DNA from: an uncultured Thermus sp. | Lineage (GTDB): Bacteria > Deinococcota > Deinococci > Deinococcales > Thermaceae | NCBI GenBank assembly: GCA_947085095.1 | Contig: CAMTVD010000006.1 | Coordinates: 34,587-98,586, forward strand | Reading direction: 5' to 3' | Length of the DNA stretch: 64,000 bases | Part shown: positions 1,480 to 63,901 of the stretch, piece after piece | Numbering within the stretch: the stretch's first letter is position 1 | Layout: every line of letters starts with the position of its first letter | Program-made: the position numbers and the translations under genes | Notes under the pieces: generated by a model | The model's input: only the letters and a program-made list of their open reading frames with translations | Databases searched by the model: none | Told to the model about the DNA's origin: nothing

Positions 1480-2069
1480 AGATCTGCGGCCTGACCCGCC
1501 TCGAGGACGCCCTCCTCGCCGAGTCCTTGGGGGCCTGGGCCCTGGGCTTCGTTCTGGCCCCGGGCTCCAAGAGGCGGGTCTCCGCCGCAAGGGCCCGGGA
1601 AATCGCCAAAGCCCTGGGGCCCTTCGTGGTGCGGGTGGGGGTCTTCCGGGACCAAGGCCCCGAGGAGGTCCTCCGCCTCATGGAGGAGGGCCGCCTCCAG
1701 GTGGCCCAGCTCCACGGGCGCGAGCCCCCGGAGTGGGCGGAGCGGGTGGGCCTGTTCTTCCCCGTCATCAAGGCCTTCGCCCTGGAAGGCCCCGCAAAGC
1801 CCGAGTGGGCGGACTATCCGGCCAGCGCCCTCCTCCTGGACAGCCAGAATCCGGGAAGCGGCCAGGGCTACCCCAGGGAGTGGGCCACGCCCCTCCTCCA
1901 GACCGGCAAACGGGTCATCCTGGCGGGAGGGATTGGGCCGGAAAACCTGGAGGAGGTCCTGGCCCTGAGGCCCTACGCCATAGACCTGGCCAGCAGCGTG
2001 GAGGAGGCCCCGGGAATCAAGAGCGAGGCCAAGCTGAAGACCCTCTTCGCCCGTATGATGGGAGGGTGA
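1470..2069 (+). CDS. trpF: Phosphoribosylanthranilate isomerase
   Basis: GTG at 1470 gives MRVKICGLT; motifs VGVF, QLHG, LLD...GSG and ILAGGI.PEN; overlaps the nrdJ stop. Confidence 0.93.
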   Translation: MRVKICGLTRLEDALLAESLGAWALGFVLAPGSKRRVSAARAREIAKALGPFVVRVGVFRDQGPEEVLRLMEEGRLQVAQLHGREPPEWAERVGLFFPVIKAFALEGPAKPEWADYPASALLLDSQNPGSGQGYPREWATPLLQTGKRVILAGGIGPENLEEVLALRPYAIDLASSVEEAPGIKSEAKLKTLFARMMGG

Positions 2070-2857
2070 TCGGCAGGAGGCACCCCTTTCTTCCCCACCT
2101 TTGGGCCATGCTGGAGGCGGCCCACCTGGCCCGGGGCATCCACCTCTACTACCTGGAAAAGGGCTTCACCCAGGGCACTAAGTCGGGCCCCACGGACCTG
2201 GTGACCCAGGCGGACCGGGAGTCGGAGGAGGCCATCAAGGAGCTTCTCTTAAGCCGCTTCCCCGAGGCGGGCTTCCTGGGCGAGGAAGGGGGAAGTGAGG
2301 GGGGCAGGGCCCTCCGCTTCATCGTGGACCCCCTGGACGGCACGGTGAACTACGCCCACGGCTTCCCCTTCTACGGGGTCTCCATCGCCCTCGAGGCCGA
2401 GGGGGTCATCCAGGCGGGGGTGGTCATGGACACCGCCCGGGGGGAGACCTTCTACGCCCTGAGGGGCGAGGGGGCCTACCTGGACGGCAGGCCCATCCGG
2501 GTCACGGAAAGGGCCGAGCTTTTGGGAAGCCTGCTGGCCACGGGCTTCCCTTACGATGTGGCCAGGGATGCGGAGAACCTCACCTACTTCACCCGGGCCC
2601 TGAGGCGGGGGCTTTTGGTGCGCCGCCCCGGGGCCGCCGCCCTGGACCTGGCCTACGTGGCCGCGGGCCGGCTGGAGGGCTTCTGGGAGGTGAAGCCGAA
2701 CCCCTGGGACGTGGCCGCGGGCTGGCTATTGGTGGAGGAGGCGGGGGGAAGGGTCACGGACCTCGAGGGGAAGCCCTACCGCCTGGGCCACCGCTACATC
2801 GTGGCCAGCAACGGCAGGGTGCACCAGGCCCTTCTGGAGGCCCTGCTCTCTGACTAA
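2066..2857 (+). CDS. suhB: Inositol monophosphatase family protein
   Basis: GTG at 2066 (GTGA overlap with trpF); DLVT.AD, GEE, DPLDGTVNY and PWDVAAG motifs. Confidence 0.88.
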   Translation: MIGRRHPFLPHLWAMLEAAHLARGIHLYYLEKGFTQGTKSGPTDLVTQADRESEEAIKELLLSRFPEAGFLGEEGGSEGGRALRFIVDPLDGTVNYAHGFPFYGVSIALEAEGVIQAGVVMDTARGETFYALRGEGAYLDGRPIRVTERAELLGSLLATGFPYDVARDAENLTYFTRALRRGLLVRRPGAAALDLAYVAAGRLEGFWEVKPNPWDVAAGWLLVEEAGGRVTDLEGKPYRLGHRYIVASNGRVHQALLEALLSD

Positions 2858-2866
2858 AATCGGGGT

Positions 2867-3346
2867 ATGGACCTCGAGGCCAAGAAGAAAGTCCTGCGGA
2901 GCTTCACCTACGGGCTCTACCTCCTCACGGCGAGGGACGGCGAGGAGGTGGCCGCCGGGACGGTGAACTGGGTGACCCAGGCCTCCTTCCAGCCCCCCCT
3001 CATCGCCCTGGGGGTCAAGGGGGATAGCCGCCTCCACGTCCTCATAGAGGGCACGGGGAGGCTCGCCCTCATGACCCTGGCCCAGGACCAGAAGGGGATC
3101 GCCCAGGACTTCTTCAAGCCCACGATACGGGAAGGGGACCGGCTCAACGGCCACCCCTTTGAGCCCTCCCCCACCTTCGGCCTCCCCCTCCTCACGGAAC
3201 TCCCCTACTGGCTGGAGGCCGAGGTGCGCCACCTCTACAAGGGCGGGGATCACAGCCTGGTGGTGGCCCAGGTGGTGGAGGCCGGGGTGCGCTACGAGGC
3301 CAAGCCCCTGGTGATGTGGGACACGGGCTGGTTCTACGGAGGCTAG
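2867..3346 (+). CDS. Flavin reductase-like FMN-binding protein
   Basis: TVNWVTQASFQPP and GDH motifs; TAAAAT lies 6 nt upstream of the ATG. Confidence 0.85.
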   Translation: MDLEAKKKVLRSFTYGLYLLTARDGEEVAAGTVNWVTQASFQPPLIALGVKGDSRLHVLIEGTGRLALMTLAQDQKGIAQDFFKPTIREGDRLNGHPFEPSPTFGLPLLTELPYWLEAEVRHLYKGGDHSLVVAQVVEAGVRYEAKPLVMWDTGWFYGG

Positions 3347-3717
3347 AGGACGGCGATCTCCACCTCCCGCCCCTCGGGCAGGAGGAAGGCCCGGAAGCCA
3401 TCGGTGCCGAAGATCACGTAGGGCACCCGCCAGCGGGCCTCCTTGAGGTCCGTGGGGCTGGGGAAGGCCGGGCCCCGGGGATGGGAGTGGTAGATGGCCA
3501 GAAGCTCAAGGCCCTCCCTTTCCAGCTCCCTAAGGGCCTTCAAAAGGGCCAGGGGCTCCGCCAGGTAGCCGCTTAGGGGGTTCGGGTGGACGTTGGGCAA
3601 GGGGATGACCCTCTCCACCTCCCGCCTGCCCGCCCAAAGCCCCACCCCTTCCTTGGGGAACTCCCGCTTAAGGTGGTCCTCGGTGGCCTGAAGGAGCCCG
3701 CGCGGCACGTAGAGCAT
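3343..3717 (-). CDS. JAB/MPN+ (JAMM) metalloprotease
   Basis: N-terminal Glu (PKEGVG) plus YHSHP...PSPTD, matching E-x-HxH-x7-S-x2-D. Alternative TTG start at 3726. Confidence 0.88.
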   Translation of the reverse strand: MLYVPRGLLQATEDHLKREFPKEGVGLWAGRREVERVIPLPNVHPNPLSGYLAEPLALLKALRELEREGLELLAIYHSHPRGPAFPSPTDLKEARWRVPYVIFGTDGFRAFLLPEGREVEIAVL

Positions 3718-3773
3718 CCGGGACAATCGCCCCCTTTCCGGCCCTATACTATGGGCACCAAGAGGGAGGGACC

Positions 3774-5750
3774 ATGATCCGAACCGTCGCCCTGGTGGGC
3801 CATGCGCAAAGCGGCAAAACCACCCTAACGGAAGCCCTTCTCTACAAAACGGGGGCCAAGGACCGCATGGGCCGGGTGGAGGACGGCACCACCACCACGG
3901 ACTATACCCCCGAGGCCAAGCTCCACCGCACCACGGTGCGCACCGGGGTGGCCCCCTTGCGCCACAGGGGGCACCGCATCTTCCTCCTGGACGCCCCCGG
4001 CTACGGGGACTTCGTGGGGGAGATCCGGGGGGCCCTCGAGGCCGCCGACGCCGCCCTGGTGGCCGTGTCCGCGGAAAACGGGGTCCAGGTGGGCACGGAG
4101 AGGGCCTGGACCGTGGCCGAGCGCCTGGGCCTCCCCCGGATGGTGGTGGTCACCAAGCTGGACAAGGGTGGGGACTACTACGCCCTCCTGGAAAGCCTCC
4201 GGAGCACCCTGGGCCACATCCTCCCCATAGACCTCCCCCTCTACGAGGGGGGCAGGTGGGTGGGGCTCATTGACGTCTTCCACGGGAAGGCCTACCGCTA
4301 TGGGAACGGGGAGGAGGTGGAGGTCCCCATCCCCGAAGAGGAGCGGGAAAAAGCCCTCCGATTCCGGCAGGAGGTCTTGGAGGCCATCGTGGAGACGGAC
4401 GAAACCCTTCTGGAGAAGTACCTGGAGGGGGAGGAGGTCTCGGGAGCGGCCCTGGAGAAGGCCTTCCACGAGGCGGTGCGCCAGGGCCTCCTCTACCCCG
4501 TGGCCCTGGCCTCTGGGCCCACCGGCATCGGGGTCCTGCCCCTATTGGACCTGATCCTCGAGGCCCTCCCCTCCCCCGAGGAGCGCTTCGGGAACGGCGC
4601 GCCCCTCGCCAAGGTCTTCAAGGTGCAGGTGGACCCCTTCATGGGCCAGGTGGCCTACGTGCGCCTCTACCGGGGAAGGCTCAAGCCCGGGGACACCCTC
4701 ATGAGCGAGGCGGGGACCATCCGCCTTCCCCACCTCTACGTGCCCATGGGCAAGGACCTCCTGGAGGTGGAGGAGGCGGAGGCGGGCTACATCCTGGGCC
4801 TCCCCAAGGCGGAAAACCTCCACCGGGGCATGGTCCTCTGGCAGGGGGAAAGGCCGGAGAGCGAGGCGGTGCCCTTCGCCCGCCTCCCCGAGCCCAACGT
4901 GCCCGTGGCCATCCACCCCAAGGGGCGCACGGACGAGGCCAAGCTGGGGGAGGCCCTGAGGAAGCTTTTGGAGGAGGACCCGAGCCTCAGGCTGGAGCGG
5001 CAGGAGGAAACGGGGGAGCTCCTCCTTTGGGGCCACGGGGAGCTCCACCTCACCACCGCCAAAGAGCGCCTTTCCGACTACGGGGTGGAGGTGGAGTTCT
5101 CCGTGCCCAAGGTCCCCTACCGGGAGACCATCAAGAGGGTGGCGGAGGGGCAGGGCAAGTACAAGAAGCAGACCGGGGGGCACGGCCAGTACGGGGATGT
5201 CTGGCTCCGCCTGGAGCCCGCCCCCGAGTACAGCTTTGAGTGGCGCATCACCGGGGGGGTCATCCCCTCCAAGTACCAGGAGGCCATTGAGGAAGGGATC
5301 AGGGAGGCCGCCAAGAAAGGGGTCCTGGCGGGCTATCCCGTCATGGGCTTCAAGGCCATCGTCTACAACGGCTCCTACCACGAGGTGGACTCCTCGGACC
5401 TGGCCTTCCAGATCGCCGCCAGCATGGCCTTCAAGAAGGTGATGGAGCTGGCGAACCCTGTCCTCCTGGAACCCATCTACCAGATCAGGGTCCTGGCCCC
5501 CCAGGAGCGGGTGGGGGACATCCTCTCCGACCTCCAGGCGAGGCGGGGGCGGATCCTGGGCATGGAGCAGGAGGGGGCCCTGGCGGCGGTGCGGGCCGAG
5601 GTGCCCCTTTCTGAGGTCCTGGAGTACTACAAAACCCTTCCCAGCCTCACGGGCGGGGCCGGGGCCTACACCCTGGAGTTCAGCCACTACCAGGAGGTTC
5701 CCCCGCCCCTCGCCCAGAGGATCATCCAGAGCCGGGCCCAGGAGGGCTGA
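3774..5750 (+). CDS. fusA2: Elongation factor G paralogue (EF-G2)
   Basis: GHAQSGKTT, DAPGYGDF, KKQTGGHGQYG and GSYHEVDSS; five-domain EF-G layout, 658 aa. Confidence 0.92.
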   Translation: MIRTVALVGHAQSGKTTLTEALLYKTGAKDRMGRVEDGTTTTDYTPEAKLHRTTVRTGVAPLRHRGHRIFLLDAPGYGDFVGEIRGALEAADAALVAVSAENGVQVGTERAWTVAERLGLPRMVVVTKLDKGGDYYALLESLRSTLGHILPIDLPLYEGGRWVGLIDVFHGKAYRYGNGEEVEVPIPEEEREKALRFRQEVLEAIVETDETLLEKYLEGEEVSGAALEKAFHEAVRQGLLYPVALASGPTGIGVLPLLDLILEALPSPEERFGNGAPLAKVFKVQVDPFMGQVAYVRLYRGRLKPGDTLMSEAGTIRLPHLYVPMGKDLLEVEEAEAGYILGLPKAENLHRGMVLWQGERPESEAVPFARLPEPNVPVAIHPKGRTDEAKLGEALRKLLEEDPSLRLERQEETGELLLWGHGELHLTTAKERLSDYGVEVEFSVPKVPYRETIKRVAEGQGKYKKQTGGHGQYGDVWLRLEPAPEYSFEWRITGGVIPSKYQEAIEEGIREAAKKGVLAGYPVMGFKAIVYNGSYHEVDSSDLAFQIAASMAFKKVMELANPVLLEPIYQIRVLAPQERVGDILSDLQARRGRILGMEQEGALAAVRAEVPLSEVLEYYKTLPSLTGGAGAYTLEFSHYQEVPPPLAQRIIQSRAQEG

Positions 5751-5751
5751 G

Positions 5752-6642
5752 GTGGCCCTGGAGCGCCTGAGGGAAGCCTTGGCCCAGGCCCTCTTCGGCC
5801 AGGAGGAGGTCATAGAGGCCCTCCTGGCCACGGTCCTGGCCCGGGGGCACGCCCTCTTGGAAGGGGTCCCGGGCCTGGGCAAGACCCTGCTGGCGGAAAG
5901 CTTCGCCCGCGCAAGCGGCCTTTCCTACAAGCGCATCCAGTTTACCCCCGACCTTCTCCCCCAGGACCTCACGGGAAGCGAGGTCTTCCGGGAGGGGCGT
6001 TTTGAGTTCGTGAAGGGGCCCGTCTTCGCCCAGGTGGTCCTGGCGGACGAGGTGAACCGGGCCCCCCCCAAGGTGCAGTCGGCCCTCCTCGAGGCCATGC
6101 AGGAAAGGGCGGTCACCGCCGGGGGGGTACGCCACCCCCTGCCCGAGCCCTTCTTCGTAGTGGCCACGCAAAACCCCCTGGAGCTGGAAGGGACCTATCC
6201 CCTCCCCGAGGCCCAGCTGGACCGCTTCACCGCCCGGATCGTCTTCCGCCCCCCCAGGCGGGAGGTGTGGCTCAGGATCCTCACCGAGGAGCCCAAAACC
6301 CCAGAGCCCTTGGAGGTGGACTTTCCCCAGGTGCAAAAGGAGGCCCGGGAGGTCCGGGTGGCCAGGGAGGCCCTCGAGGCCATCACCCACGTGGCCTTCC
6401 TCACCGCCGAGGACAAGAGGCTCCGCATGGGCCTCTCCCCCCGGGGGGCCAAGGCCTGGCTCTCCTTGGCCAAGGCCCTGGCCCACCTCCGGGATAAGCC
6501 CCTGGTGGACTGGAAGGAGCTTAAGGACGCCGCCTCCTTAGCCCTCCCCCATCGCCTTTTCCTCACGGAGGAGGCCCTTTACGAGGGGGAAAGCGCCGAG
6601 AAGGTGCTCATGGAAGCCTTGAGGAAAGGAGGTATTCCGTGA
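5752..6642 (+). CDS. MoxR family AAA+ ATPase
   Basis: LEGVPGLGKT, RIQFTPDLLP, LADEVNRA.PKVQSALLEAMQE and ATQNP.E.EGTYPLPEAQLDRF. Confidence 0.93.
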   Translation: MALERLREALAQALFGQEEVIEALLATVLARGHALLEGVPGLGKTLLAESFARASGLSYKRIQFTPDLLPQDLTGSEVFREGRFEFVKGPVFAQVVLADEVNRAPPKVQSALLEAMQERAVTAGGVRHPLPEPFFVVATQNPLELEGTYPLPEAQLDRFTARIVFRPPRREVWLRILTEEPKTPEPLEVDFPQVQKEAREVRVAREALEAITHVAFLTAEDKRLRMGLSPRGAKAWLSLAKALAHLRDKPLVDWKELKDAASLALPHRLFLTEEALYEGESAEKVLMEALRKGGIP

Positions 6643-9688: not shown

Positions 9689-10363
9689 ATGGAACCCCCT
9701 CTGATCCTGATCGTGGAGGACGAGAAGGACATCGCCCGCTTCATAGAGCTGGAGCTTATGGCGGAGGGCTACCGCACCGAGGTGGCCCACGACGGCATCA
9801 CCGGGCTTTCCAAGTTCCGGGAGGTGAACCCCAACCTGGTCATCCTGGACCTGATGCTCCCGGTCATGGACGGGATTGAGGTGGCTAGGCGCATCCGCAA
9901 GACCTCCAACGTGCCCATCCTCATCCTCACCGCCAAGGACCGGGTGGAGGACAAGGTTCTGGGCCTGGATGCGGGGGCCGACGACTACCTGGTGAAGCCC
10001 TTCTCCATTGAGGAGCTGTTGGCCCGGGTGCGGGCCCACCTGCGCCGGGTAACCCCAGCCATCACCGGGGAGATCCGGGTGGCGGACCTGATCGTCAACC
10101 TCGAGGGCCGGGAGGTCTTCCGGGGGGGGCGCCGGATCGAGCTCTCCAACAAGGAGTTTGAGCTCCTGGAGCTCTTGGCCAAGAACCCGGGCAAGGTCTT
10201 CAGCCGCTACGAGATTGAGGAAAAGGTCTGGCCCGGCTACCAGGGCGGGAGCAACGTGGTGGACGTCTACATCGGCTACCTGCGCAAGAAGCTGGAGGCG
10301 GGCGGGGAGCGCCGCCTCATCCACACCGTGCGGGGCGTGGGGTACGTGCTGAGGGAGGACTAG
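9689..10363 (+). CDS. OmpR/PhoB family response regulator
   Basis: VEDE, LDLMLP (phospho-Asp), [10 protein letters not shown] and winged-helix HTVRGVGY. Confidence 0.95.
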
Positions 10364-13645: not shown

Positions 13646-14398
13646 TTAGAAGATGAGCCTCGAGGGGTGCCGGGAACCCAGGAAGGGAGCCCCCAGGAAG
13701 GCGAAAAGGAGCAGGGCGTAGGCGAGAAGGAGAAGCCCCGCCCGGGGAAGCCCCCTTAGCCTCTCCTCCAAGAGGAAGTGGAGGGTCAAAAGAAACCAGC
13801 CCAGGAAGGCGGAAAGCTCCTTGGGGTCTAAGGTCAAGGGGCTTCCGAAGTAGCCCCAGGCCCAGGCCATCCCGCTCCCCAGGCCCAGGGTGGCCGCCAG
13901 ATACCCCACCCTTAGGTACCCCCGCTCCAGGCGCCTGAGGCTCCAGAGGGGGGCGTTTTGCAGGGCCTTCTCGGGGGCACGGCGCAGGCGCAGGTCCTGT
14001 AGAGCACCCATCACCCCCGCCCCTACTCCCACCGCCAGGGCCAGGTAGGCCACCAGGAAAGCCCCCCCGTGGAGGAGGCTGAGGGAAAGGGGATGCGCCC
14101 CCCCGGGATGGGACAGGGCCTTGAGGGCGAAAAAACCTAAAAGGAGGGCTAAAAGGAGGAGGTAGCGCCGCAAGGGAGCAAGCCAGGGCCTTTGCAGAAG
14201 GCTTTCCCCTCTAAGGGCGAGAAACCCGCCCAAGAGGAGGGCGGGCTGGGCCGGGCCAGAAAAAAGCCCCTTAACCAGGGCATCCGCCAGGGCCGCCCCC
14301 AGGTAGAGAAGGGCCCCGGGATAAAGGGCCCGGGGCCAGAAGAGGCCCAGGGCCAAGCCCACCACGCCCCCCAGCGCCAGAAGGTCAGCGAGGTTCAT
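13646..14398 (-). CDS. Cytochrome c assembly protein CcsA/HemX-like membrane protein
   Basis: Multi-TM protein with LLHGG and GSGMAWAW..FG....DPKE motifs; ATG overlaps the hemA stop. Confidence 0.8.
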   Translation of the reverse strand: MNLADLLALGGVVGLALGLFWPRALYPGALLYLGAALADALVKGLFSGPAQPALLLGGFLALRGESLLQRPWLAPLRRYLLLLALLLGFFALKALSHPGGAHPLSLSLLHGGAFLVAYLALAVGVGAGVMGALQDLRLRRAPEKALQNAPLWSLRRLERGYLRVGYLAATLGLGSGMAWAWGYFGSPLTLDPKELSAFLGWFLLTLHFLLEERLRGLPRAGLLLLAYALLLFAFLGAPFLGSRHPSRLIF

Positions 14399-19516: not shown

Positions 19517-19596
19517 ACTTCCCTAGGCATCCTTTAGCCTACTCCACAAAGGGGCTCGAGGCCCGGGGGCAAGGGGTGCTCTGGTACCCTAAGGCC

Positions 19597-20907
19597 ATGA
19601 TCGCCCGCTACCAGACGCCGGAGATGGCCGCTCTCTGGTCCGAGGAGAACCGGTACCGCATGTGGGCCCTGGTGGAGGCCTACGCCCTCGAGGCCTGGGA
19701 GGGTTTGGGCCAGGTGCCCAAGGGCCTTTCCGAGAGGCTACTCAAGAGGCTTGGGGAAAAGCCCCTCACCGAGGCCTTCGCCCAGAGGGTGGCCGAGATC
19801 GAGGCGTCCACCCGCCACGACCTCGTGGCCTTCACCCGGGCCCTCACCGAGTGGACGGAGGACGAGGAGGTGGGCCGCTACCTCCACCTGGGCCTCACCA
19901 GCTCCGACGTGGTGGACACGGCGCAAAACGCCCTTCTGGTAAAGGCCCTGGACCTCATCCTGGAGGAGCTAAAGGGAGTGGAGGAGGCCCTTAAAGGGCT
20001 CGCCCTCCGCTACCGGCGCACCCCCGCCATCGCCCGCACCCACGGGGTCCACGCCGAGCCCACGAGCTTCGGCCTCCGCTTCCTGAGCTTCTACGCCGCC
20101 TTCCAGAGGGACTGGGAGCGGCTTCGGCGGGCCCAGGAGACCATGGGGGTGGCCATGCTCTCGGGCTCCGTGGGCAACTACGCCCACCTGCCCCCGGAGG
20201 TGGAGGCCCACGTGGCCTCGAGGCTCGGCCTCCGCCCCGAGCCCGTCTCCACCCAGGTGGTGCCCCGGGACCGGCACGCCGAGGTCCTGGCGGCTTTGGC
20301 CATCCTGGGGGGGAACCTGGAGCGGGTGGCGGTGGAGCTCAGGCACCTGCAACGCACGGAGGTCCTCGAGGCGGAGGAACCCTTCCGGGAGGGGCAGACC
20401 GGGAGCTCCTCCATGCCCCACAAGAAAAACCCCGTGGGCCTGGAGAACCTCACCGGGGTGGCGAGGCTCTTAAGGGGCTACCTGCCGCCCGCCCTGGAGG
20501 ACATCGCCCTCTGGCACGAGCGGGACATCTCCCACTCCTCGGTGGAGCGGGTCATCCTCCCCGACGCCACCACCCTGGCCCACTACGCCCTGAGGCGGCT
20601 CAAGGGGATCCTGGAGGGCCTGGTGGTCCACGAGGAAAACCTGAGGCGGAACCTGGACCTCACCCGGGGCCTGGTCTACTCCCAGCAGGTCCTAAACGCC
20701 CTCATCCAGAGGGGCCTTCCCCGGGACCAGGCCTACGCCCTCGTCCAGCGGAACGCCCTAAGGAGCTGGGAGGAAAAGAGGTCCTTCGCCGAGCTTTTGG
20801 AGGAGGACCCGGAAAACCCCCTCAAGGGCGAGGCCCTAAGGGCCCTCTTTGACCCCGCGCCCTTCCTGAGGCACGTGGACGCCATCTACGCCCGATTTGG
20901 CCTCTAG
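19597..20907 (+). CDS. purB: Adenylosuccinate lyase
   Basis: MIARY, TRHD, HLGLTSSD, RTHGVHAEPT and GSSSMPHKKNP. Confidence 0.96.
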   Translation: MIARYQTPEMAALWSEENRYRMWALVEAYALEAWEGLGQVPKGLSERLLKRLGEKPLTEAFAQRVAEIEASTRHDLVAFTRALTEWTEDEEVGRYLHLGLTSSDVVDTAQNALLVKALDLILEELKGVEEALKGLALRYRRTPAIARTHGVHAEPTSFGLRFLSFYAAFQRDWERLRRAQETMGVAMLSGSVGNYAHLPPEVEAHVASRLGLRPEPVSTQVVPRDRHAEVLAALAILGGNLERVAVELRHLQRTEVLEAEEPFREGQTGSSSMPHKKNPVGLENLTGVARLLRGYLPPALEDIALWHERDISHSSVERVILPDATTLAHYALRRLKGILEGLVVHEENLRRNLDLTRGLVYSQQVLNALIQRGLPRDQAYALVQRNALRSWEEKRSFAELLEEDPENPLKGEALRALFDPAPFLRHVDAIYARFGL

Positions 20908-23168: not shown

Positions 23169-23878
23169 AACCCAAAGCCATCACCTTTGACTTCTGGGGC
23201 ACCCTCTTCACCGAGGGTAGGGCGTTCATGGAAAAGGTCATGCCCGCCCGGTACGAGATCCTCTTGGACGCCCTTTCCGAAGCGGGCCACCCCGCCGAGG
23301 AGGCCGAGGTGCGGGAGGCCTACCGCCAGGCGGCCTTGGCCTTTGAGGAGGCCTGGAGGGCGGGGGAGCACATGAGCGTTTACGACCGGGTGGTCCGCAT
23401 CTTCGCCCTCCTGGGGGCCCCCCATGATCCCGGCCTCGTGGCCCTCACGGCCAGGAGGCTGGAGGAGACCTCTTTGCTGGTGGACCTCGAGGCCCTCCCC
23501 GGGGTGGAGGTCCTGAAGGACCTGGCCAAGAAATACCCCCTGGCCCTGGTTTCCGATACGGGCATGACCCCGGGCCGCCTCGTCCGGGAGCACCTGAGGC
23601 GGCGGGGCCTGGACCTCTTCCAGGCCTACAGCTTCTCCGACGAGACGGGCTTCGTGAAGCCCAGGCCCGAGGCCTTCCTCAGGGCCTTGGAGGCCCTGGG
23701 CGTGCCCCCGGAGGAGGCCCTCCACGTGGGAGACCTGCCCCAGACGGACATCAAGGGGGCCTTCGGGACGGGCTACCCCTGGGCGGTGCAGTACGTGGGC
23801 CTGAGGGAGGTGAACGGGGAGGTGGAGCCCACGGCCAAGGTGAAGGACCACCGGGAACTCCTTTCCCTCCTCACGTGA
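23165..23878 (+). CDS. HAD-superfamily hydrolase within the pur operon
   Basis: FDFWGTL, VSDT, KP and HVGD...DI.GA; overlaps purQ and purL. Confidence 0.88.
   Translation: MKPKAITFDFWGTLFTEGRAFMEKVMPARYEILLDALSEAGHPAEEAEVREAYRQAALAFEEAWRAGEHMSVYDRVVRIFALLGAPHDPGLVALTARRLEETSLLVDLEALPGVEVLKDLAKKYPLALVSDTGMTPGRLVREHLRRRGLDLFQAYSFSDETGFVKPRPEAFLRALEALGVPPEEALHVGDLPQTDIKGAFGTGYPWAVQYVGLREVNGEVEPTAKVKDHRELLSLLT

Positions 23879-27435: not shown

Positions 27436-27439
<4 letters not shown>
26048..27439 (+). CDS. purF: Amidophosphoribosyltransferase
   Basis: EECG propeptide, LQHRGQE, HTRYST, VPDSG, DDSIVRGTTS, and Fe-S Cys residues (CAFE, PCYYG, CLACF). Confidence 0.96.
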
Positions 27440-29365
<1,926 letters not shown>

Positions 29366-53940: not shown

Positions 53941-54477
53941 GTGGGGCCAACCGAGGAAAAGCCCCTAAACCTAGATGCCCCGCGGGTCCTGGTCTTGAAC
54001 GCGGCCTACGAGGTTTTGGGCCTGGCCAGCGTGAAGCGAAGCGTGCTTCTGGTCCTCTCGGGGGGCGCGGAGATGCTTTCGGAAAGCGGCCGCTTCCTGC
54101 ACACCCCTTCCACCCAGATCCCCGTCCCCAGCGTCATCCGGCTGAAGCGCCTGGTGCGGCGGGGCCCAAGCCGCGTGCCCCTGAACCGCCGCAACGTCCT
54201 CCGCCGGGACCGCTACACCTGCCAGTACTGCGGCCGCCAGGGGGGCGAGCTCACCGTGGACCACGTCCTCCCCAGAAGCCGGGGGGGGAAAAGCACCTGG
54301 GAGAACCTGGTGGCCGCCTGCCGCGCCTGCAACCTAAAAAAAGGGGACCGGACCCCAGAGGAGGCGGGGATGCGCCTCCTCAAGTCCCCCAAGGTCCCCC
54401 GCGCCCCCCTTTTCCTCTCCGACCTCAAGGAGATCCCAGAGACCTGGCAACCCTACCTCGAGGCCCTCTTGAGGTAG
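53941..54477 (+). CDS. HNH endonuclease family protein
   Basis: VLVLNA.YE, PSVIRL, RD..TCQYCG, TVDHV.PRSRGG and CRACN..K; TATCCT lies 6 nt before the GTG. Confidence 0.9.
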   Translation: MGPTEEKPLNLDAPRVLVLNAAYEVLGLASVKRSVLLVLSGGAEMLSESGRFLHTPSTQIPVPSVIRLKRLVRRGPSRVPLNRRNVLRRDRYTCQYCGRQGGELTVDHVLPRSRGGKSTWENLVAACRACNLKKGDRTPEEAGMRLLKSPKVPRAPLFLSDLKEIPETWQPYLEALLR

Positions 54478-56216: not shown

Positions 56217-57050
56217 CTACCGCCGCACGCTGAGGAGGACGGCGAGAAGCACCAGCCCCGCCCCCAGGTAGCCCAAGGGGGAGAGGAGTTCCCTAAAGAG
56301 GAGGAAGGCGAAGAGGTTGGCCACCACCGGCTCGAGGGTGGCCAGGACGCTGGCCCGGGTGGCGGGAAGCCGCCTCAGGCCAGCGTAGTAGGCCAGGTAG
56401 GCCCCGTACGTGGAAATGGAGCCCAGGAAGAGGAGGGCGAGGAGGGCCTGAGGGCTCAAGGGAACCAGTTCCACAAAGGGGAAAAGCCCCAAGGCCCCCA
56501 CGGGCAGGGCGTAGAGGAAGAGGGTGGGGGTGGCGTAGCGGGGCAGGTAGAGCTTGCCGAAGATGTAGTAAAGGGCGTAGGTGAATCCCGAGAGGAGGCC
56601 GAAGAAGAGGGCGGGGAAAAGGGCCTTCACCTCACTCCCTCCGCCCAAGCCCATGAGCCCCACCCCCAGAAGGGTGAGGGCCACGGCGAGGAGGCCCGGG
56701 GTGTCCAAAGCCTCCTTCAGGACCAGGCGGGAGAGAAGGGCCACAAAGGCGGGAGCGGTGTAGAGGAGGACCGAGGCCAAAGCCGCCCCCCCGTACCCCA
56801 CGGAAAGCTGGTAGGAGCCGTAGAAGAGGGACACCCCCACCAGGCCAAAGAGGAGGAGGGCGGGCAGGTCCTTGGGATGGAGGCGCACCTGGCGCAAGAG
56901 GAGGGCGTGCAGGGCGAAGAAAGCCCAGGCGATGACCGCTCGGAAGAAGGCCACCAAAAGGGGGGAAAGCCCCTCCTGGAAGGCCAATCGGCTCACCGGA
57001 CCGATGAGCCCCCAGAGGAAGGCCGCCAGGAAGAGGTAGAGATAGCCCAT
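56217..57050 (-). CDS. DMT/EamA family transporter
   Basis: About 10 TM segments; FLWG, LLYTAP and LEPV. Confidence 0.9.
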   Translation of the reverse strand: MGYLYLFLAAFLWGLIGPVSRLAFQEGLSPLLVAFFRAVIAWAFFALHALLLRQVRLHPKDLPALLLFGLVGVSLFYGSYQLSVGYGGAALASVLLYTAPAFVALLSRLVLKEALDTPGLLAVALTLLGVGLMGLGGGSEVKALFPALFFGLLSGFTYALYYIFGKLYLPRYATPTLFLYALPVGALGLFPFVELVPLSPQALLALLFLGSISTYGAYLAYYAGLRRLPATRASVLATLEPVVANLFAFLLFRELLSPLGYLGAGLVLLAVLLSVRR

Positions 57051-58013: not shown

Positions 58014-58961
58014 TCACTCCTTTAGGGCGAAGCCCCGCTTGGCCAGGGCCTCGCGGATCTCCTCTAGGCTCCTTTCCCCGATGCCGGGGATGTTCCGCAG
58101 GTCCTTGAGGTTGAGGGCGAGGAGGGCCCGCACGGACTCAATCCCCTCCTCCTTGAGGCTGTGGAGCACCCGGGTGGAAAGGCCCAGCTCCTCCAGGGGC
58201 AGGTCCAGGTCCTCCCCTGCCGCCCCCTTCCCTTCCCGCTCCAGGGGAACCTCGGCAGGGGGTAGGGCGGTGGTCTGGGGGTTGCCGAAGTAGGCGAGGT
58301 GTTCCTTGAGGATCTCCACCGCCTGGTTCAGGGCCTCGAGGGGGGTGACGGAGCCGTCCGTCCAGATCCTTAAGGTGAGCTTGTCCAGGTCGGTGCGCTG
58401 GCCCAGACGGGTGTCCTCCACCTGGAAGGCCACCCGGCGCACGGGGGAGAAGACGGCGTCCACGGGGATGGCGTTGATGCGGTCCTTGATGCCGTGGCGC
58501 TCCGCGGGCACGGACCCCACCCCCCGGTCCACCCGCACCTCCATGTAGAGCCTGCCGCCCTCCTCCAGGGTGGCGATGTGGAGGTCGGGGTTGAGGATCT
58601 CCACGTCGGCGGAAGGGGTGAAGTCCCCCGCCCTGACCTCCTTGGGGCCCTCCGCCTTCAGAACCAGGGTGGTGGTCTGCATCTTGGGATCCAGGAAACG
58701 CACCACCAGCTCCTTGAGGTTCAAAACGATCTCCACCACGTCCTCCTTCACCCCGGGGATGGTGGAGAACTCGTGGAGGACGTCCTCAATGTAGACGCTG
58801 GTGACGGCGGTCCCAGGGATGGAGGAAAGGAGGATGCGGCGGAGGGGGTTGCCCAGGGTGACGCCGAACCCCCTTTCTAGGGGCTCGAGGACGAACTCCC
58901 CGTACTCGCGCCCCTGGGTGCGCACCGCGAAGACTGGCGCTTTCAGCTTGCTTTCCAACAT
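58014..58961 (-). CDS. rpoA: RNA polymerase alpha subunit
   Basis: [22 protein letters not shown] and DAVFSPV, plus alpha-CTD; AGGAGG SD before ATG 58961. Confidence 0.98.
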
Positions 58962-59613: not shown

Positions 59614-59626
59614 CTTCTCTTACTCC

Positions 59627-60443: not shown

Positions 60444-60452
60444 GTTCCCTCC

Positions 60453-60566: not shown

Positions 60567-60574
60567 CTCGCCTC

Positions 60575-60793: not shown

Positions 60794-60800
60794 ACCCCTC

Positions 60801-61568
60801 CTACCGCGCCCGCACCAGGGAAACCCCGGTCAAAAGCTCCGGGCCCTCTGCCGTCACCAGGACGGTGTTCTCGTAGTGGGCGGCGAGGTTGCCCCTTCCG
60901 GCGCTCGCCGTCCAGCCATCTTCCAATATTACCACAGAAGCTGGCTTCAGAGTGACCATGGGCTCGAGGGCCAAGGTCATGCCAGGACGGATCTTGGGCC
61001 CCGTCCCAGGCTTGCCAAAGTTGGGGAGCTGCGGGTCCTCGTGGATCTCCCGCCCCACCCCGTGGCCCACGAACTCCCGCACCACCCCATACCCCCTCTC
61101 CTCCAGAAAGCGCTGCACGGCATGGGACACGTCCCCAATGCGGTAACCCGGCCTGAGGTACTTCAGCCCCTCAAAGAAAGCCGCCTCCGTGTCCTTGATG
61201 AGCCTCTCCGCCTCGGGGGAAACCCGGCCCACGGGGAAGGTCCGGGCCATGTCCGCCGCAAAGCCCCCGTAGATAAGGCCCACGTCTATGGACAGGATGT
61301 CCCCTTCCCTCAGGGGCTCCTCCGAGGGGATGCCGTGGACCACCACCTCGTTCACCGAGGTGCAGAGCGTGGCGGGGAAGCCATAGAGGCCCAGAAAGGC
61401 GGGCTTGGCCTTGCGCTTCCTTATGGCCTCGTAGGCGATCCGGTCCAGCTCCTTGGTGGTGATGCCGGGCTCCACGTGGCGGCCCACCTCCTCCACCACC
61501 TCGGTGAGGAGGGCTCCCGCCTCCCGCATGCGCTCAATCTCCCAGGGGCTTTTCAGCTTGATGGCCAT
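60801..61568 (-). CDS. map: Methionine aminopeptidase
   Basis: [24 protein letters not shown] and HYENT. Confidence 0.97.
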
Positions 61569-62122: not shown

Positions 62123-62130
62123 GCTTCCTC

Positions 62131-63447
62131 CTAACGGGTACGGCCGCGGATCCGGCCCTTGGAGAGAAAGCCCTCGTAGTTCCTCAGCATCAGCTGGCTC
62201 TCAATCTGCCTCAGGGTGTCCAGGGTCACCCCCACCACGATGAGAAGACCGATCCCGGAAAAGGCGATGCTCTGGACCCCGGTGAGGTTCTGGATGATCT
62301 GGGGCAAAGCGGCCACCAAACCCAGGAAGAGGGCCCCCCAAAGGGTGAGGCGGGAGACGATGTGCTCCAGGAACTTCACCGTGGGCTCCCCCGGGCGGAT
62401 GCCGGGAATGAAGCCCCCGTACTCCCGCAAGGACTCGGCGATGCGCTTGGGGTCAAACTGCACGGCGGTGTAGACGTAGGTGAAGAGGATGATGAGGAGC
62501 ACCTCTATGAGGAGGCCGGAAAGGCGGGTGGGGTTGAAGAAGTTGGCGATGGCCTGGAGCACGGCGTTGTCCTGGAAGGGAGCGGCGAGGAAGATGGGGA
62601 TCTGCAGGATGGCGGCAGCGAAGATGATGGGAATGACTCCGGCGGCGTTCAGCTTGATGGGGATGTAGGTGGCCTGCCCCCCGTAGACCCTCCGCCCCAC
62701 CACCTTACGGGCGTACTGGACGGGGATCCTCCGCTCCGCCTGTTGCACCGCGGCCATGCCAGCAAAGGCCAGGACGATGAAGGCCAGGAAGAAGAGGAAG
62801 GCCACCAGGTTCACCTCCCCGGTGCGGATGAGGCCTGCGGTGCGCACAAGCTGGGGGAGCCACTCCACCACGATCCCAGCGAAGATGATCATGCTGGTAC
62901 CGTTGCCGATGCCGTACTCGGTGATGCGCTCCGCCATCCAGAGGAGGAGGGCGATGCCCGCCACCTGGGTGACCACGACTACCAGCCAGAAGAAGGGCCC
63001 CGGGGACCAGCCGGGGAGGAGGAACCTGCCCCCTTCCGCCCCCAGAAAAGCCGTGGCGAGGAAGAAGCCCTGGAAGGCCCCCAGAGCGATGCCGCCGATG
63101 CGGGTGTACTGCGTGATGATGCGGCGGCCCTCCTCCCCCTCTTTGGAAAGCTTCTCCAGCGCCGGTACGATGTTAACCAAAAGCTGCATGACGATGGCCG
63201 CGGTGATGTAGGGCATGATGCCCAGGGCGAAGATGGAGAAGCGCTCAAAGTTGCCCCCAGAGAAGAGGTTGATGATGCCAAAGACCCCCCCCTGGGTGGT
63301 GCGCAGGAACTCCTGGATCTTGTCCAGGTCCACCCCCGGGGTGGGGATGAAGGCCCCCAAGCGGTAGGCGGCCAGGACCAGGAGGGTGAAGAGGATACGC
63401 TGGCGCAGCTCGGGGATTTGGAGGGCGCTCCGGAAGGCCTTCAGCAT
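62131..63447 (-). CDS. secY: Preprotein translocase SecY
   Basis: SIFALGIMPYITA, GIGNG.S and IPGIRPG; 10 TM segments. Confidence 0.98.
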   Translation of the reverse strand: MLKAFRSALQIPELRQRILFTLLVLAAYRLGAFIPTPGVDLDKIQEFLRTTQGGVFGIINLFSGGNFERFSIFALGIMPYITAAIVMQLLVNIVPALEKLSKEGEEGRRIITQYTRIGGIALGAFQGFFLATAFLGAEGGRFLLPGWSPGPFFWLVVVVTQVAGIALLLWMAERITEYGIGNGTSMIIFAGIVVEWLPQLVRTAGLIRTGEVNLVAFLFFLAFIVLAFAGMAAVQQAERRIPVQYARKVVGRRVYGGQATYIPIKLNAAGVIPIIFAAAILQIPIFLAAPFQDNAVLQAIANFFNPTRLSGLLIEVLLIILFTYVYTAVQFDPKRIAESLREYGGFIPGIRPGEPTVKFLEHIVSRLTLWGALFLGLVAALPQIIQNLTGVQSIAFSGIGLLIVVGVTLDTLRQIESQLMLRNYEGFLSKGRIRGRTR

Positions 63448-63448
63448 C

Positions 63449-63901
63449 TTAGGCCTCCAAAAGGACGGCCTCGCCGCCCGCGGCCTTCAGCTTCTCCAGG
63501 GCGCTCTTGGAGAAGGCGTGGGCCACCACCTTTAGGGGCTTGGCCTCCCCGTCCCCCAGGATCTTCAGGCGGTAGCCCTTCTTGAGGAGGCCCGCCTGGA
63601 CCAGAAGCTCGGGGGTCACCTCCCCCTCAAAGCGGGCCAGGGCCTCGAGGTTCACCCCCTGGTACCTGGGCCTCTTGATCTCCCCGGGGACCTGGCCCTG
63701 CATGCCCCGCTTGGGCAGGCGCATGAGGGTGGTGGAGCGCCCGCCCTCAAAGCGGCGGGGGTCCTTAAGGCCGCCGGAGCGGGACTTCTGGCCCTTGTGG
63801 CCCCGGGTGGCGGTCTTGCCGTGGCCGGAGCCGGGGCCCCGGCCCACCCGCTTGCGCTTCTTGTTGGCCCCTGGATTGGGCTTTAGATCGGAAAGCTTCA
63901 T
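63449..63901 (-). CDS. rplO: 50S ribosomal protein L15
   Basis: [24 protein letters not shown] and FEGG. Confidence 0.98.

What the first reader, a model, noticed from the sequence alone, without database searches (positions are those of the whole stretch)
1499..63650. Highly iterated palindrome CCTCGAGG in a TCGA-avoiding background (HIP1-like signal)
Seen: about 55 CCTCGAGG copies by eye, roughly one per 1.2 kb. A base-composition estimate at about 68% GC predicts only 2-3. Almost every TCGA in the window lies inside this octamer; the few exceptions I found are GCTCGAGG (about 19554, 56330, 58883, 60962) and GATCGAG (about 10135, 19797). Elsewhere TCGA is dodged with codons rare in such GC-rich DNA (ATT GAG, ATA GAC, TTT GAG/GAC). 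Most copies read Leu-Glu, but at least one does not (GCC TCG AGG in purB, 20216). Known: TCGA is the TaqI-family restriction/methylation site of Thermus, and cyanobacterial HIP1 (GCGATCGC) is an octamer built around a methyltransferase core. Inference: a DNA-level process maintains CCTCGAGG, such as methylation-directed repair or conversion, a protective overlapping methylation, a chromosome-organising protein, or an uptake/recombination signal in a naturally competent genus.
Basis: partly seen in the sequence, partly recalled or inferred. Interest (0 to 1): 0.75.

Follow-up and report, generated by a model that had tools for sequence, protein, structure and literature searches.

The report
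Thermus TCGA purge spares CCTCGAGG
In this Thermus genome, as in its whole genus, almost every copy of the restriction site TCGA has been erased except inside the eight-letter word CCTCGAGG, which stays at its ordinary codon-driven level, probably because a second DNA-marking enzyme protects it there.

Summary
The window has 57 CCTCGAGG, and 57 of 63 TCGA lie inside one. The genome has 1576 octamers among 1932 TCGA.

The "HIP1-like" reading fails. Octamer density per 400 kb is 304-351 in this genus, 350 in a sister genus and 257/357 in outgroups without TCGA avoidance. It follows from a family-wide CTC GAG spelling of Leu-Glu.

The anomaly is a purge. Non-octamer TCGA is 292 against about 8260 expected in genes, and is depleted in every frame and between genes. 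All 24 sampled congeners share it.

An M.TaqI orthologue sits at one syntenic locus in 31 of 31 congeners and R.TaqI in 9 of 31.

Best explanation for the sparing is a second, XhoI-related restriction-modification pair: the TTHA0409-type methylase plus a partner nuclease. Relatives pair this methylase with true XhoI nucleases in 6 of 6 loci.

This step is inferred; no methylome exists.

The scan earlier noted, on other DNA, a CTCGAG-rich Deinococcota clade and a phage purge with sparing.

The parts
1499..63650 (.). 57 copies of the palindrome CCTCGAGG. Starts: 1499, 2389, 2761, 2872, 4034, 4556, 6087, 6372, 6671, 8693, 10099, 10853, 11669, 11793, 13074, 13658, 16418, 16885, 17050, 19686, 20216, 20364, 22461, 23485, 24612, 25632, 26539, 29676, 30126, 30315, 30459, 31907, 33043, 34151, 34823, 38413, 39649, 40739, 42232, 42460, 42769, 43297, 43609, 47142, 48761, 50198, 50630, 51225, 52091, 52845, 53661, 54456, 55196, 57453, 58334, 59124, 63643.
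   Evidence: One search lists them. All 57 lie in called genes; 54 are in the frame C|CTC GAG|G.
13658..13665 (-). Octamer not in the Leu-Glu frame, at the 3' end of a called minus-strand gene (13646-14398).
   Evidence: It lies at a gene end, so the frame assignment is less sure.
20216..20223 (+). Octamer read GCC TCG AGG (Ala-Ser-Arg) inside purB (19576-20907).
   Evidence: purB identified by TIGR00928, E 5.9e-137.
54456..54463 (-). Octamer not in the Leu-Glu frame, at the end of a called minus-strand gene (54453-56207).
   Evidence: It lies at a gene end, so the frame assignment is less sure.
10137..10140 (.). TCGA outside the octamer, context GGATCGAGCT.
19556..19559 (.). TCGA outside the octamer, context GCTCGAGG (one flank wrong).
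19799..19802 (.). TCGA outside the octamer, context GATCGAGG.
56332..56335 (.). TCGA outside the octamer, context GCTCGAGG.
58885..58888 (.). TCGA outside the octamer, context GCTCGAGG.
60964..60967 (.). TCGA outside the octamer, context GCTCGAGG.

Best explanation
There are three layers.

(1) Shown: the octamer is abundant because of coding. In this bacterial family Leu-Glu is preferentially spelled CTC GAG. A preceding codon ending in C and a following codon starting with G complete CCTCGAGG. Its density is the same in relatives that do not avoid TCGA, so nothing amplifies it.

(2) Shown as a pattern, cause inferred: the genus and its sister genus have purged TCGA from every other sequence context, in all reading frames and between genes. 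This is restriction-site avoidance driven by the TaqI system. An M.TaqI-type methylase gene sits at one conserved locus in every genome. It comes in two old forms. One travels with the R.TaqI nuclease. The other is a stable orphan, which is what this genome has. The two forms are scattered across the flanking-gene tree, so lineages seem to alternate between having and lacking the nuclease.

(3) Inferred: CCTCGAGG escapes the purge because it is also the target of a second system. That system is the TTHA0409-type methylase (here G000:C18:77387-78298) with an XhoI-related nuclease partner right behind it (C18:78298-78972). A site marked by two independent methylases is effectively never left bare, so it carries no cost. 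The spared word would then report the working specificity of that second methylase: CCTCGAGG in this genus, and a looser CTCGAG with C/G flanks in the sister genus.
For: Layer 1:
- Octamers per 400 kb: G000 304, G018 316, G011 306, G015 351, sister genus G082 350, outgroups G054 257 and G031 357.
- CTC GAG is 53-75% of Leu-Glu with C or G flanks in the outgroups (22-58% when A follows). It is 38-46% here, and only in the C_G context.
- Intergenic octamers per kb: 0.32 here against 0.31 and 0.20. Off-frame octamers per 400 kb: 8.7 against 17 and 5.

Layer 2:
- In called genes, TCGA outside the octamer is 292 observed against about 8260 expected from codon shuffles.
- All 255 other contexts have O/E 0-0.23.
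- Off-frame non-octamer TCGA is about 6 against about 245 per 400 kb. Intergenic is 0.45 against 2.9-3.4 per kb.
- All 24 sampled congeners have 12-113 CTCGAC against 1343-2345 for the reversed word; other families have 1011-6433.
- The M.TaqI orthologue (E 1.8e-170 to PDB 2ibs) is in 31 of 31 congeners and 2 of 2 sister-genus genomes, and in 0 of 34 genomes of four other genera. R.TaqI is in 9 of 31, always adjacent to M.
- The locus is syntenic. M splits into clade A (12 genomes, all 9 R+) and clade B (19 genomes, 0 R+). With an outgroup the split {A}|{B + sister genus} has support 98/95.
- The flanking-gene tree intermixes A and B.
- The orphan M is intact in 19 of 19, with median dN/dS 0.32.
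- All four Thermus phages examined are TCGA-poor, at 0.13-0.35 of a Markov expectation.

Layer 3:
- The methylase is the TTHA0409 orthologue (PDB 2zie, E 3.8e-164).
- In 6 of 6 intact PF04555 (XhoI) loci of three related genera, the nuclease lies next to a 60-67% identical homologue of this methylase.
- The Thermus partner family aligns to those XhoI nucleases at 96% probability, E 4.9e-9. One homologue hits PF04555 directly at E 2e-6.
- Its model (pLDDT 92) matches restriction endonucleases best, BbvCI at E 7e-5.
- R+ genomes keep 1534-2174 octamers, so the sparing works in cells that have the nuclease.
- 8 of 9 R+ genomes have an intact copy of the methylase.
- In three phages, 13 of 13 CTCGAG are CCTCGAGG.
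Against: - No methylome of any Thermus strain was found in print, so neither the target of the TTHA0409-type methylase nor its modified base is known.
- Its closest characterised context is a 6-base (XhoI-type) system. The 8-base specificity is read only from the genome footprint.
- Whether its mark blocks R.TaqI is unknown.
- The methylase is not universal: intact in 21 of 31 congeners.
- One R+ genome (G003) has only residues 34-256 of it and no partner nuclease, yet keeps 1835 octamers.
- G083 lacks the pair but resembles G082, which has it.
- The partner ORF itself does not reach the Pfam XhoI model; only 1 of 37 homologues does.
- Phage P23-45 shows no sparing: 2 octamers among 41 TCGA, and 5 GCTCGAGG.
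- The purge is nearly as deep in 19 R-less genomes (median CTCGAC/control about 0.027 against 0.012 in R+). This requires recurrent exposure to R.TaqI, which I infer from tree incongruence only.
- Close pairs of octamers are under-represented, so the octamer is not wholly cost-free.
Confidence: 0.5

Rival explanations
1. The M.TaqI-family methylase itself does the sparing. The family descends from a CTCGAG-specific orphan. The resident orphan form (clade B) methylates only, or far best, the extended site CCTCGAGG. Each time the R.TaqI-carrying allele replaces it, or is replaced by it, at the shared locus, every TCGA that the orphan does not cover is exposed. So only genomes stripped of such sites survive the switch.
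For: - The nearest outgroup homologue (G031, 56% identity, E 6.7e-114) belongs to the same family.
- Blow et al. 2016 (S3 and S5 tables read) report an orphan, Eco57I-family, CTCGm6AG methylase in Marinithermus. They also list orphan CTCGAG m6A methylases in two Meiothermus species.
- Clades A and B are old lineages with 21 fixed differences, including a derived 4-residue deletion right after the NPPY motif in B.
- M is far more diverged between G000 and G015 (62%) than the median protein (84%).
- Alleles are intermixed on the flanking-gene tree.
- There is no R remnant in 19 of 19 B loci.
- The sister genus, whose M groups with B, spares a broader CTCGAG context.
Against: - Long-standing R+ genomes carry only the A form, known biochemically as plain TCGA for M.TaqI (recalled). 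They still keep 1742-1967 octamers (G003, G014, G015, G077), so the sparing works without the orphan form.
- I did not establish that G031's homologue is the enzyme of the paper.
- A failed allele switch kills only the transformed cell, so selection on the donor lineage is indirect.
Confidence: 0.2
2. R.TaqI-type nucleases are intrinsically poor at cutting TCGA flanked by CC and GG, so that context never carried a cost.
For: - The sparing is seen in R+ genomes and in 3 of 4 Thermus phages.
- It needs no extra enzyme, which would explain why the pattern survives in genomes without the TTHA0409-type methylase.
Against: - Phage P23-45, whose listed host is T. thermophilus, avoids TCGA 4-fold but has 2 CCTCGAGG against 5 GCTCGAGG, 11 CCTGGAGG and 18 CCTTGAGG. 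That makes no sense if the octamer were uncuttable.
- The sister genus spares a different, broader context.
- An all-or-none dependence on both outer bases (O/E 0.06-0.23 with one wrong flank) is unusual for flank effects on a 4-base cutter (my own knowledge).
Confidence: 0.08
3. One reading: CCTCGAGG is a functional or actively generated word (HIP1-like). It would be kept by repair or conversion, or used as a binding, organising or uptake signal.
For: - The octamer is 1.7 times the within-genome codon-shuffle expectation, 1532 against 901.
- Octamer sites are retained between species more than their synonymous twin: 133/172 against 91/161, 56/90 against 36/103, 75/121 against 55/99.
- Spacing is more even than random, with CV 0.81 and a deficit of close pairs.
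- It contains methylase sites, as HIP1 does (Elhai 2015, PMC4390886, abstract seen in the search listing).
Against: - Density equals that of outgroups in genes, off-frame and between genes.
- The extra retention is expected from the purge alone, because flank changes and GAG>GAA create forbidden words.
- There is no C5 methylase for a very-short-patch-type repair.
- Thermus DNA uptake is reported as not sequence-specific (recalled, not checked here).
Confidence: 0.07

Closest known systems
Restriction-site (short palindrome) avoidance in genomes that carry the cognate R-M system (Gelfand and Koonin 1997, Rocha 2001: recalled; Rusinov 2015, PMC4687349, main text searched for terms only)
   Same: A 4-base palindrome that is the site of a resident Type II system is depleted genome-wide. 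The depletion is independent of frame, is absent from relatives without the system, and is shared by the hosts' phages.
   Different: The depth is about 28-fold against a codon-aware null, whereas published cases are usually a few-fold. It persists through a whole genus although only 9 of 31 species hold the nuclease. One single 8-base context out of 256 is fully exempt.
HIP1 (GCGATCGC) and alternate HIPs of cyanobacteria (Elhai 2015, PMC4390886; Xu et al. 2018, PMC5861425; abstracts seen in a search listing)
   Same: An 8-base GC-rich palindrome occurs about once per gene. It is built round the sites of methyltransferases, at least one of them an orphan conserved through the clade.
   Different: HIP1 is reported as 15- to 300-fold over-represented and as selected. 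Here the octamer is at the level of outgroups, turns over neutrally, and owes its count to the Leu-Glu spelling. What is unusual is the absence of everything around it.
TaqI / TthHB8I restriction-modification system of Thermus (M.TaqI structures 2ibs, 1g38)
   Same: The genome's M is a full-length orthologue (E 1.8e-170), with the NPPY motif and the TaqI_C domain.
   Different: There is no R gene in this genome (0 PF09573 hits at 93% completeness). The M belongs to a separate, R-less clade with a 4-residue deletion after NPPY and relaxed constraint (dN/dS 0.32 against 0.14). Its specificity is untested.
XhoI-type R-M systems (CTCGAG; Pfam PF04555 nuclease) and the 8-base derivative AbsI (CCTCGAGG; recalled from enzyme catalogues, not checked)
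   Same: The TTHA0409-type methylase is 60-67% identical to the methylases that flank true XhoI-family nucleases in 6 of 6 loci. The partner ORF is a remote homologue of these nucleases (hhalign 96%).
   Different: The partner does not reach the Pfam model. Its core reads S-x-K where the XhoI family has E-x-K. Neither enzyme's site has been measured. The 8-base site is a prediction from the genome footprint.
Earlier finding of this scan, e1-5792156: GATC purge sparing TCGA-overlapping sites in a marine phage
   Same: The logic is the same: a purged 4-base site survives only where a second, overlapping modification is presumed to protect it.
   Different: That case is one phage with an uncharacterised modification cluster. 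This one is a bacterial genus with both candidate systems identifiable.

Membership tests
HIP1-type highly iterated palindrome | Octamer far more abundant than in related genomes and than codon-aware expectation | tested here: not met
   304-351 per 400 kb here against 257 and 357 in outgroups. Only 1.7 times the codon shuffle.
HIP1-type highly iterated palindrome | Over-representation in all reading frames and in non-coding DNA | tested here: not met
   Against composition it looks 5-10-fold, but intergenic and off-frame densities equal those of outgroups run through the same gene caller.
HIP1-type highly iterated palindrome | Sites conserved between species beyond the neutral rate | tested here: inconclusive
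   Retention is higher than for the synonymous twin, but the core third position changes at 0.16 against 0.20-0.23 for controls, and flows are balanced at 58 against 78.
HIP1-type highly iterated palindrome | Contains the site of clade-wide orphan methyltransferase(s) | tested here: met
   The M.TaqI orthologue is in 31 of 31 congeners, and is an orphan in 22 of them.
Restriction-site avoidance | Site depleted against a null that keeps proteins and codon usage | tested here: met
   TCGA is 1824 against 9155 +- 70. Outside the octamer it is 292 against about 8260.
Restriction-site avoidance | Depletion independent of reading frame and present in non-coding DNA | tested here: met
   Off-frame about 6 against about 245 per 400 kb; intergenic 0.45 against 2.9-3.4 per kb.
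Restriction-site avoidance | Cognate system present in the lineage, and depletion absent where it is absent | tested here: met
   M is in 33 of 33 genomes of the two purged genera and 0 of 34 in four other genera of the family. R is in 9 of 31.
Restriction-site avoidance | Viruses of the host avoid the site too | tested here: met
   P23-45 41 against 161; TSP4 (first 50 kb) 24 against 68; P23-77 3 against 16; IN93 4 against 23. That is 4 of 4 Thermus phages examined.
TaqI R-M system | M.TaqI-type gamma-class methylase (NPPY, TaqI_C domain) | tested here: met
   PF07669 and PF12950 hits; E 1.8e-170 to 2ibs.
TaqI R-M system | Adjacent R.TaqI nuclease (PF09573) | tested here: not met
   0 hits in this genome at 93% completeness. 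The downstream gene is convergent. No remnant within 1.5 kb.
TaqI R-M system | Methylates the adenine of every TCGA | not testable with these tools
   Needs a methylome or an enzyme assay. None was found in print for an orphan-type strain.
XhoI-type R-M system | Methylase homologous to those paired with PF04555 nucleases | tested here: met
   60-67% identity, E 1e-113 to 1e-123, adjacent in 6 of 6 intact loci.
XhoI-type R-M system | Nuclease matches Pfam PF04555 | tested here: not met
   No hit up to E = 10; 1 of 37 homologues hits at 2e-6. Remote homology only: hhalign 96%, E 4.9e-9.
XhoI-type R-M system | Recognises CTCGAG (or the extension CCTCGAGG) | not testable with these tools
   Inferred from the spared word only.

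The most novel reading that the evidence does not exclude
The spared word is an evolutionary footprint that reads out an unmeasured enzyme specificity. On this reading the TTHA0409-family methylase and its XhoI-like partner form an 8-base CCTCGAGG system in Thermus. TTHA0409's structure has been solved since 2008; the passages I read call it only a 'putative' methylase and name no target.

The whole genus would have been sculpted by a two-allele locus, where a stable orphan M.TaqI form alternates with an M+R TaqI cassette by recombination between species. If so, purge-with-sparing patterns could be mined in other genomes to assign specificities to orphan and uncharacterised methylases without experiments.
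Probability: 0.35. Interest if true: 0.72.

Novelty: new variant of a known kind. Interest (0 to 1): 0.6.

Why it matters
- It turns an apparent "second HIP1" into something more tractable. This is one of the deepest restriction-site purges I know of, about 28-fold, and it is held across a whole genus.
- It has a single clean exemption that points at a specific pair of genes.
- It gives a concrete, cheap prediction for a structurally solved enzyme that the passages I read call only a "putative" methylase (TTHA0409): it should mark CCTCGAGG and block TaqI.
- It shows that M.TaqI, a textbook enzyme, exists in most Thermus species as a conserved orphan of a distinct clade.
- It offers a general way to read methylase specificities from genome footprints.
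- For people who engineer Thermus, it says which TCGA contexts are tolerated.

Tried and rejected
1. **Composition and dinucleotide nulls.** Kept as a check only, because they exaggerate the octamer excess 10-fold.

2. **Within-genome context matching.** It suggested a 4-fold enrichment: CTC is 7-18% before other G-starting codons but 41% in the octamer context. I rejected this as evidence of amplification once outgroups showed that CTC GAG is naturally 53-75% with C or G flanks while CTC is 3-6% before GC/GG/GT in G054.

3. **Apparent 5-10-fold excess of off-frame and intergenic octamers.** Rejected, because outgroups processed the same way give the same densities. My gene caller misses genes.

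4. **Very-short-patch-type repair.** No C5 methylase. I did not search for Vsr.

5. **Other methylases in the genome.**
   - The SPPY methylase on C35 with a BglII-family nuclease is sporadic, 2 of 31 congeners.
   - The DPPF-Mrr fusion on C36, the type IIG enzyme on C13 and the two HsdM-like genes were not followed, since nothing ties them to the word.

6. **Association of the TTHA0409-type methylase with R.TaqI.** It first looked like 9 of 9. On checking coverage it is 8 of 9 intact against 13 of 22. That is not significant and is not corrected for phylogeny.

7. **Direct Pfam match of the partner ORF to XhoI.** None.

8. **PADLOC scan.** Nothing for the partner ORF.

9. **Literature.**
   - 'CCTCGAGG' + 'Thermus': 1 paper, a primer.
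   - 'Thermus' + 'TCGA' + 'under-represented': 0.
   - Methylome searches and avoidance searches found no description of this pattern.
   - One search on 'AbsI' was wasted on unrelated words.
   - Supplements of Rusinov 2015 were not read and may list Thermus site-genome pairs.

10. **Phage accession AB823818.** Recalled as a Thermus phage; it proved to be a Geobacillus phage and was dropped.

11. **Synteny of the G031 homologue with the Thermus locus.** Not found within 1.5 kb.

Full report
**The observation**

The window holds 57 CCTCGAGG. Dinucleotide shuffles give 5.6 +- 2.4. It holds 63 TCGA against 142 +- 11 in shuffles. Of the 63 TCGA, 57 lie in the octamer.

The whole assembly has 2,076,267 bases in 41 contigs at 67.5% G+C. 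It holds 1576 octamers among 1932 TCGA and 1726 CTCGAG.

- Before a GA codon, Ile is ATT or ATA in 95% of cases, against ATC 89-91% elsewhere.
- Before a GA codon, Phe is TTT in 98.2% of cases.

Of the 57 window octamers, 54 are in the frame C|CTC GAG|G. Three are not, one of them in purB.

**Is the octamer amplified? No.**

I called genes with a simple codon-usage caller: 2062 genes, 93.6% coding. I then shuffled synonymous codons within genes.

| Word (in called genes) | Expected from shuffles | Observed |
|---|---|---|
| CCTCGAGG | 896 +- 20 | 1532 |
| TCGA | 9155 +- 70 | 1824 |

The window alone gives 31.6 +- 4.5 octamers against 57. So the composition estimate of 2-3 copies is the wrong null.

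The remaining 1.7-fold excess disappears against real relatives. I fetched 360-400 kb from three congeners, one sister-genus genome and two outgroups. Octamers per 400 kb:

| Genome | Group | Octamers per 400 kb |
|---|---|---|
| G000 | this genome | 304 |
| G018 | congener | 316 |
| G011 | congener | 306 |
| G015 | congener | 351 |
| G082 | sister genus | 350 |
| G054 | outgroup, no TCGA avoidance | 257 |
| G031 | outgroup, no TCGA avoidance | 357 |

In the outgroups Leu-Glu is spelled CTC GAG in 53-75% of cases with C or G flanks, and in 22-58% when A follows. In G054 this holds although CTC is only 3-6% before other G-starting codons. Here CTC GAG is 38-46% of Leu-Glu, but only when the previous codon ends in C and the next begins with G. 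In other contexts it is 0-5.6% in G000 and at most 12% in the three sampled congeners.

"Intergenic" and off-frame octamers looked 5-10-fold enriched against composition. They have the same density in outgroups run through the same caller:
- Intergenic: 0.32 per kb against 0.31 and 0.20.
- Off-frame: 8.7 against 17 and 5 per 400 kb.

**Are individual octamers conserved? Hardly.**

I built orthologue codon alignments (256-325 gene pairs with congeners). The octamer state is retained more often than its synonymous twin C|CTG GAG|G:

| Congener | Octamer retained | Twin retained |
|---|---|---|
| G018 | 133/172 | 91/161 |
| G011 | 56/90 | 36/103 |
| G015 | 75/121 | 55/99 |

This is expected from the purge alone. 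Flank changes and GAG>GAA create forbidden words.

**The real anomaly: a purge**

Outside the octamer, TCGA in genes is 292 against about 8260 expected, which is 28-fold. All 255 other two-base flank contexts have O/E 0-0.23:
- Contexts with one correct flank: 168 observed against 3608 expected.
- Contexts with no correct flank: 124 observed against 4636 expected.

The purge does not depend on frame:
- Off-frame non-octamer TCGA: about 6 against about 245 per 400 kb.
- Intergenic: 0.45 against 2.9-3.4 per kb.

It is genus-wide. All 24 congeners sampled have:
- 1241-2174 octamers.
- 80-92% of their CTCGAG inside the octamer.
- Only 12-113 CTCGAC against 1343-2345 for the reversed control word.

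The 16 genomes of four other families have 1011-6433 CTCGAC, and 1-47% of their CTCGAG is in the octamer.

**The TaqI locus**

This genome has a full-length M.TaqI orthologue at G000:C14:250703-251926 (E 1.8e-170 to PDB 2ibs). It has no R.TaqI: 0 hits at 93% completeness. It has no C5 methylase.

Across 68 genomes of the family:
- M is in 31 of 31 congeners and 2 of 2 genomes of a sister genus (g15).
- M is in 0 of 34 genomes of four other genera.
- R.TaqI is in 9 of 31 congeners, always next to M.

The locus is syntenic in all but this genome: aminotransferase, then M, then R where present, then a conserved gene.

The M tree has two deep clades:
- Clade A: 12 genomes, including all 9 with R.
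- Clade B: 19 genomes, none with R. This genome is in B.

With an outgroup homologue, the split {A}|{B + sister genus} has support 98/95.

A tree of the two flanking genes intermixes A and B genomes. M is much more diverged between G000 and G015 (62%) than the median protein (84%). I therefore read A and B as alternative alleles exchanged between species.

On the state of the orphan form:
- No R remnant lies downstream of M in 19 of 19 B loci.
- The orphan M is intact in 19 of 19, with median dN/dS 0.32 against 0.14 in clade A.
- B carries a derived 4-residue deletion right after the NPPY motif.

The purge is slightly cleaner in R+ genomes. The CTCGAC/control ratio has a median of about 0.012 in R+ genomes against about 0.027 in clade B. 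Outgroups are 0.5-1.9.

**Phages**

All four Thermus phages examined are TCGA-poor against a Markov expectation:

| Phage | TCGA observed | TCGA expected |
|---|---|---|
| P23-45 | 41 | 161 |
| TSP4 (first 50 kb) | 24 | 68 |
| P23-77 | 3 | 16 |
| IN93 | 4 | 23 |

In TSP4, P23-77 and IN93, all 13 CTCGAG are CCTCGAGG. P23-45 shows no sparing: 2 octamers against 5 GCTCGAGG. This speaks against a nuclease that simply cannot cut the octamer.

**Why is the octamer spared?**

R+ genomes keep 1534-2174 octamers. A clade of four R+ species that also cluster on the flanking-gene tree keeps 1742-1967. So the protection works in cells that have the nuclease and only the A-type M.

A second system fits. 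The SPPY beta-class methylase at G000:C18:77387-78298 is the orthologue of TTHA0409 (PDB 2zie, E 3.8e-164). The passages I read call that protein only a putative methylase.

Evidence on the ORF right behind it (225 aa):
- It has no Pfam hit.
- The protein atlas gave look-alike clusters, one of them with PF04555 (XhoI) on 13% of members.
- One homologue at 43% identity carries PF04555 at E 2e-6. It is the only one of 37 that does.

A phylum-wide search for PF04555 (364 genomes) found 7 genomes with it, none in this genus. In 6 of 6 intact loci the XhoI-family nuclease lies beside a 60-67% identical homologue of the TTHA0409-type methylase.

Further support for the partner as a nuclease:
- A profile of the Thermus partner family aligns to these XhoI nucleases with 96% probability, E 4.9e-9, over the catalytic core.
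- Its model (pLDDT 92) matches restriction endonucleases best: BbvCI at E 7e-5, with low TM scores.

The pair is in 21 of 31 congeners and always adjacent, with decay in some. The methylase is intact in 8 of 9 R+ genomes and in 13 of 22 R-less ones.

**Model**

I therefore propose that CCTCGAGG is marked twice and so carries no restriction cost. The spared word reports the second methylase's working specificity.

The sister genus, whose copy is 83% identical, spares a broader set per 400 kb:

| Context | Sister genus (G082) | Outgroups |
|---|---|---|
| CCTCGAGG | 350 | 257 / 357 |
| one wrong flank (CCTCGAGC + GCTCGAGG) | 154 | 386 / 434 |
| GCTCGAGC | 27 | 168 / 167 |
| CTCGAC | 4.4 | 240 / 368 |

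**Weak points**

- No methylome exists.
- The 8-base specificity is read from the footprint only.
- Whether the mark blocks TaqI is unknown.
- G003 is R+ with a truncated methylase.
- G083 lacks the pair but looks like G082.
- P23-45 lacks the sparing.

**Main rival**

The M.TaqI family itself may prefer the extended site.
- Blow et al. 2016 (S3 and S5 tables read) list orphan CTCGm6AG methylases in Marinithermus hydrothermalis (annotated Eco57I family), Meiothermus ruber and M. chliarophilus.
- An outgroup genome (G031) has a 56% identical full-length homologue of M.
- I did not establish that this is the paper's enzyme.

**An unexplained extra**

Close octamer pairs are avoided in this genus. 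In G000, gaps under 100 bp number 33 against 118 expected. The three congeners and G082 show the same tendency. The synonymous twin shows no deficit (248 against 197), and neither do the outgroups.

**Prior print**

No searched paper describes TCGA avoidance or this octamer in Thermus. Supplements of Rusinov 2015 were not read.

The scan had noted before, on other DNA, a CTCGAG-hyperabundant Deinococcota clade and a phage GATC purge that spares TCGA overlaps.

Noticed in passing
Genomes G028, G032, G036, G040 (family f5, genus g5; not in the window): These genomes have 23,235-28,018 CTCGAG per 4-4.6 Mb, but only 4-24 copies of the reversed word GAGCTC. This is the CTCGAG-hyperabundant Deinococcota clade that the scan already reported (e1-5153516).
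   Followed up: no
Genome-wide; G000 and loci L005-L122: Octamers avoid each other at short range in this genus. G000 has 33 gaps under 100 bp against 118 expected, and 13 under 50 bp against 60. The synonymous twin CCTGGAGG does not show this (248 against 197), and neither do the outgroups (13 against 16; 36 against 31).
   Followed up: partly
G000 contig C41 (8621 bases; not in the window): G+C is 55% against 67.5% for the genome. The contig has 36 TCGA and no octamer, and carries an HsdM-type methylase gene. It looks like recently acquired DNA that has not been through the purge.
   Followed up: no
G000:C35:4864-5784 and the ORF after it (locus L002:1402-2870): An SPPY methylase with a BglII-family nuclease (PF09195, E 8.6e-24). 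It is sporadic in the genus (2 of 31), but 82-83% identical copies occur in 4 of 26 genomes of another genus, which suggests transfer between genera.
   Followed up: partly
G000:C36:157-2789 (locus L003): A DPPF methylase fused to an Mrr-type nuclease domain, followed by a gene matching the PADLOC candidate defence family PDC-M19B (E 1.6e-52). The contig has unusually few octamers, 2 in 12 kb.
   Followed up: no
Genome-wide codon usage (G000, G018, G011, G082, G054): CTC is strongly avoided before any G-starting codon (7-18% of Leu here, 3-6% in G054). It is common before C-, A- or T-starting codons here (25-80%; 14-46% of cases in G054). G015 and G031 do not show this.
   Followed up: no
Phage records EU100883 (L165, L166) and MH992131 (L170): Phage P23-45 has 0 GATC against 156 expected and 1 AATT against 84. 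Its relative TSP4 has 20 GATC against 111, 53 ACGT against 136, and near-normal AATT. The two phages seem to face different host restriction sets.
   Followed up: no
G000:C14, downstream of M (locus L001:17-1486): In this genome alone among the 34 loci compared, the conserved gene downstream of M is replaced by a convergent 489-aa gene, so the locus has been rearranged.
   Followed up: no
G000 whole genome: Other 4-base palindromes are also low against a second-order Markov estimate: CGCG 0.41, CTAG 0.44, AATT 0.56.
   Followed up: no
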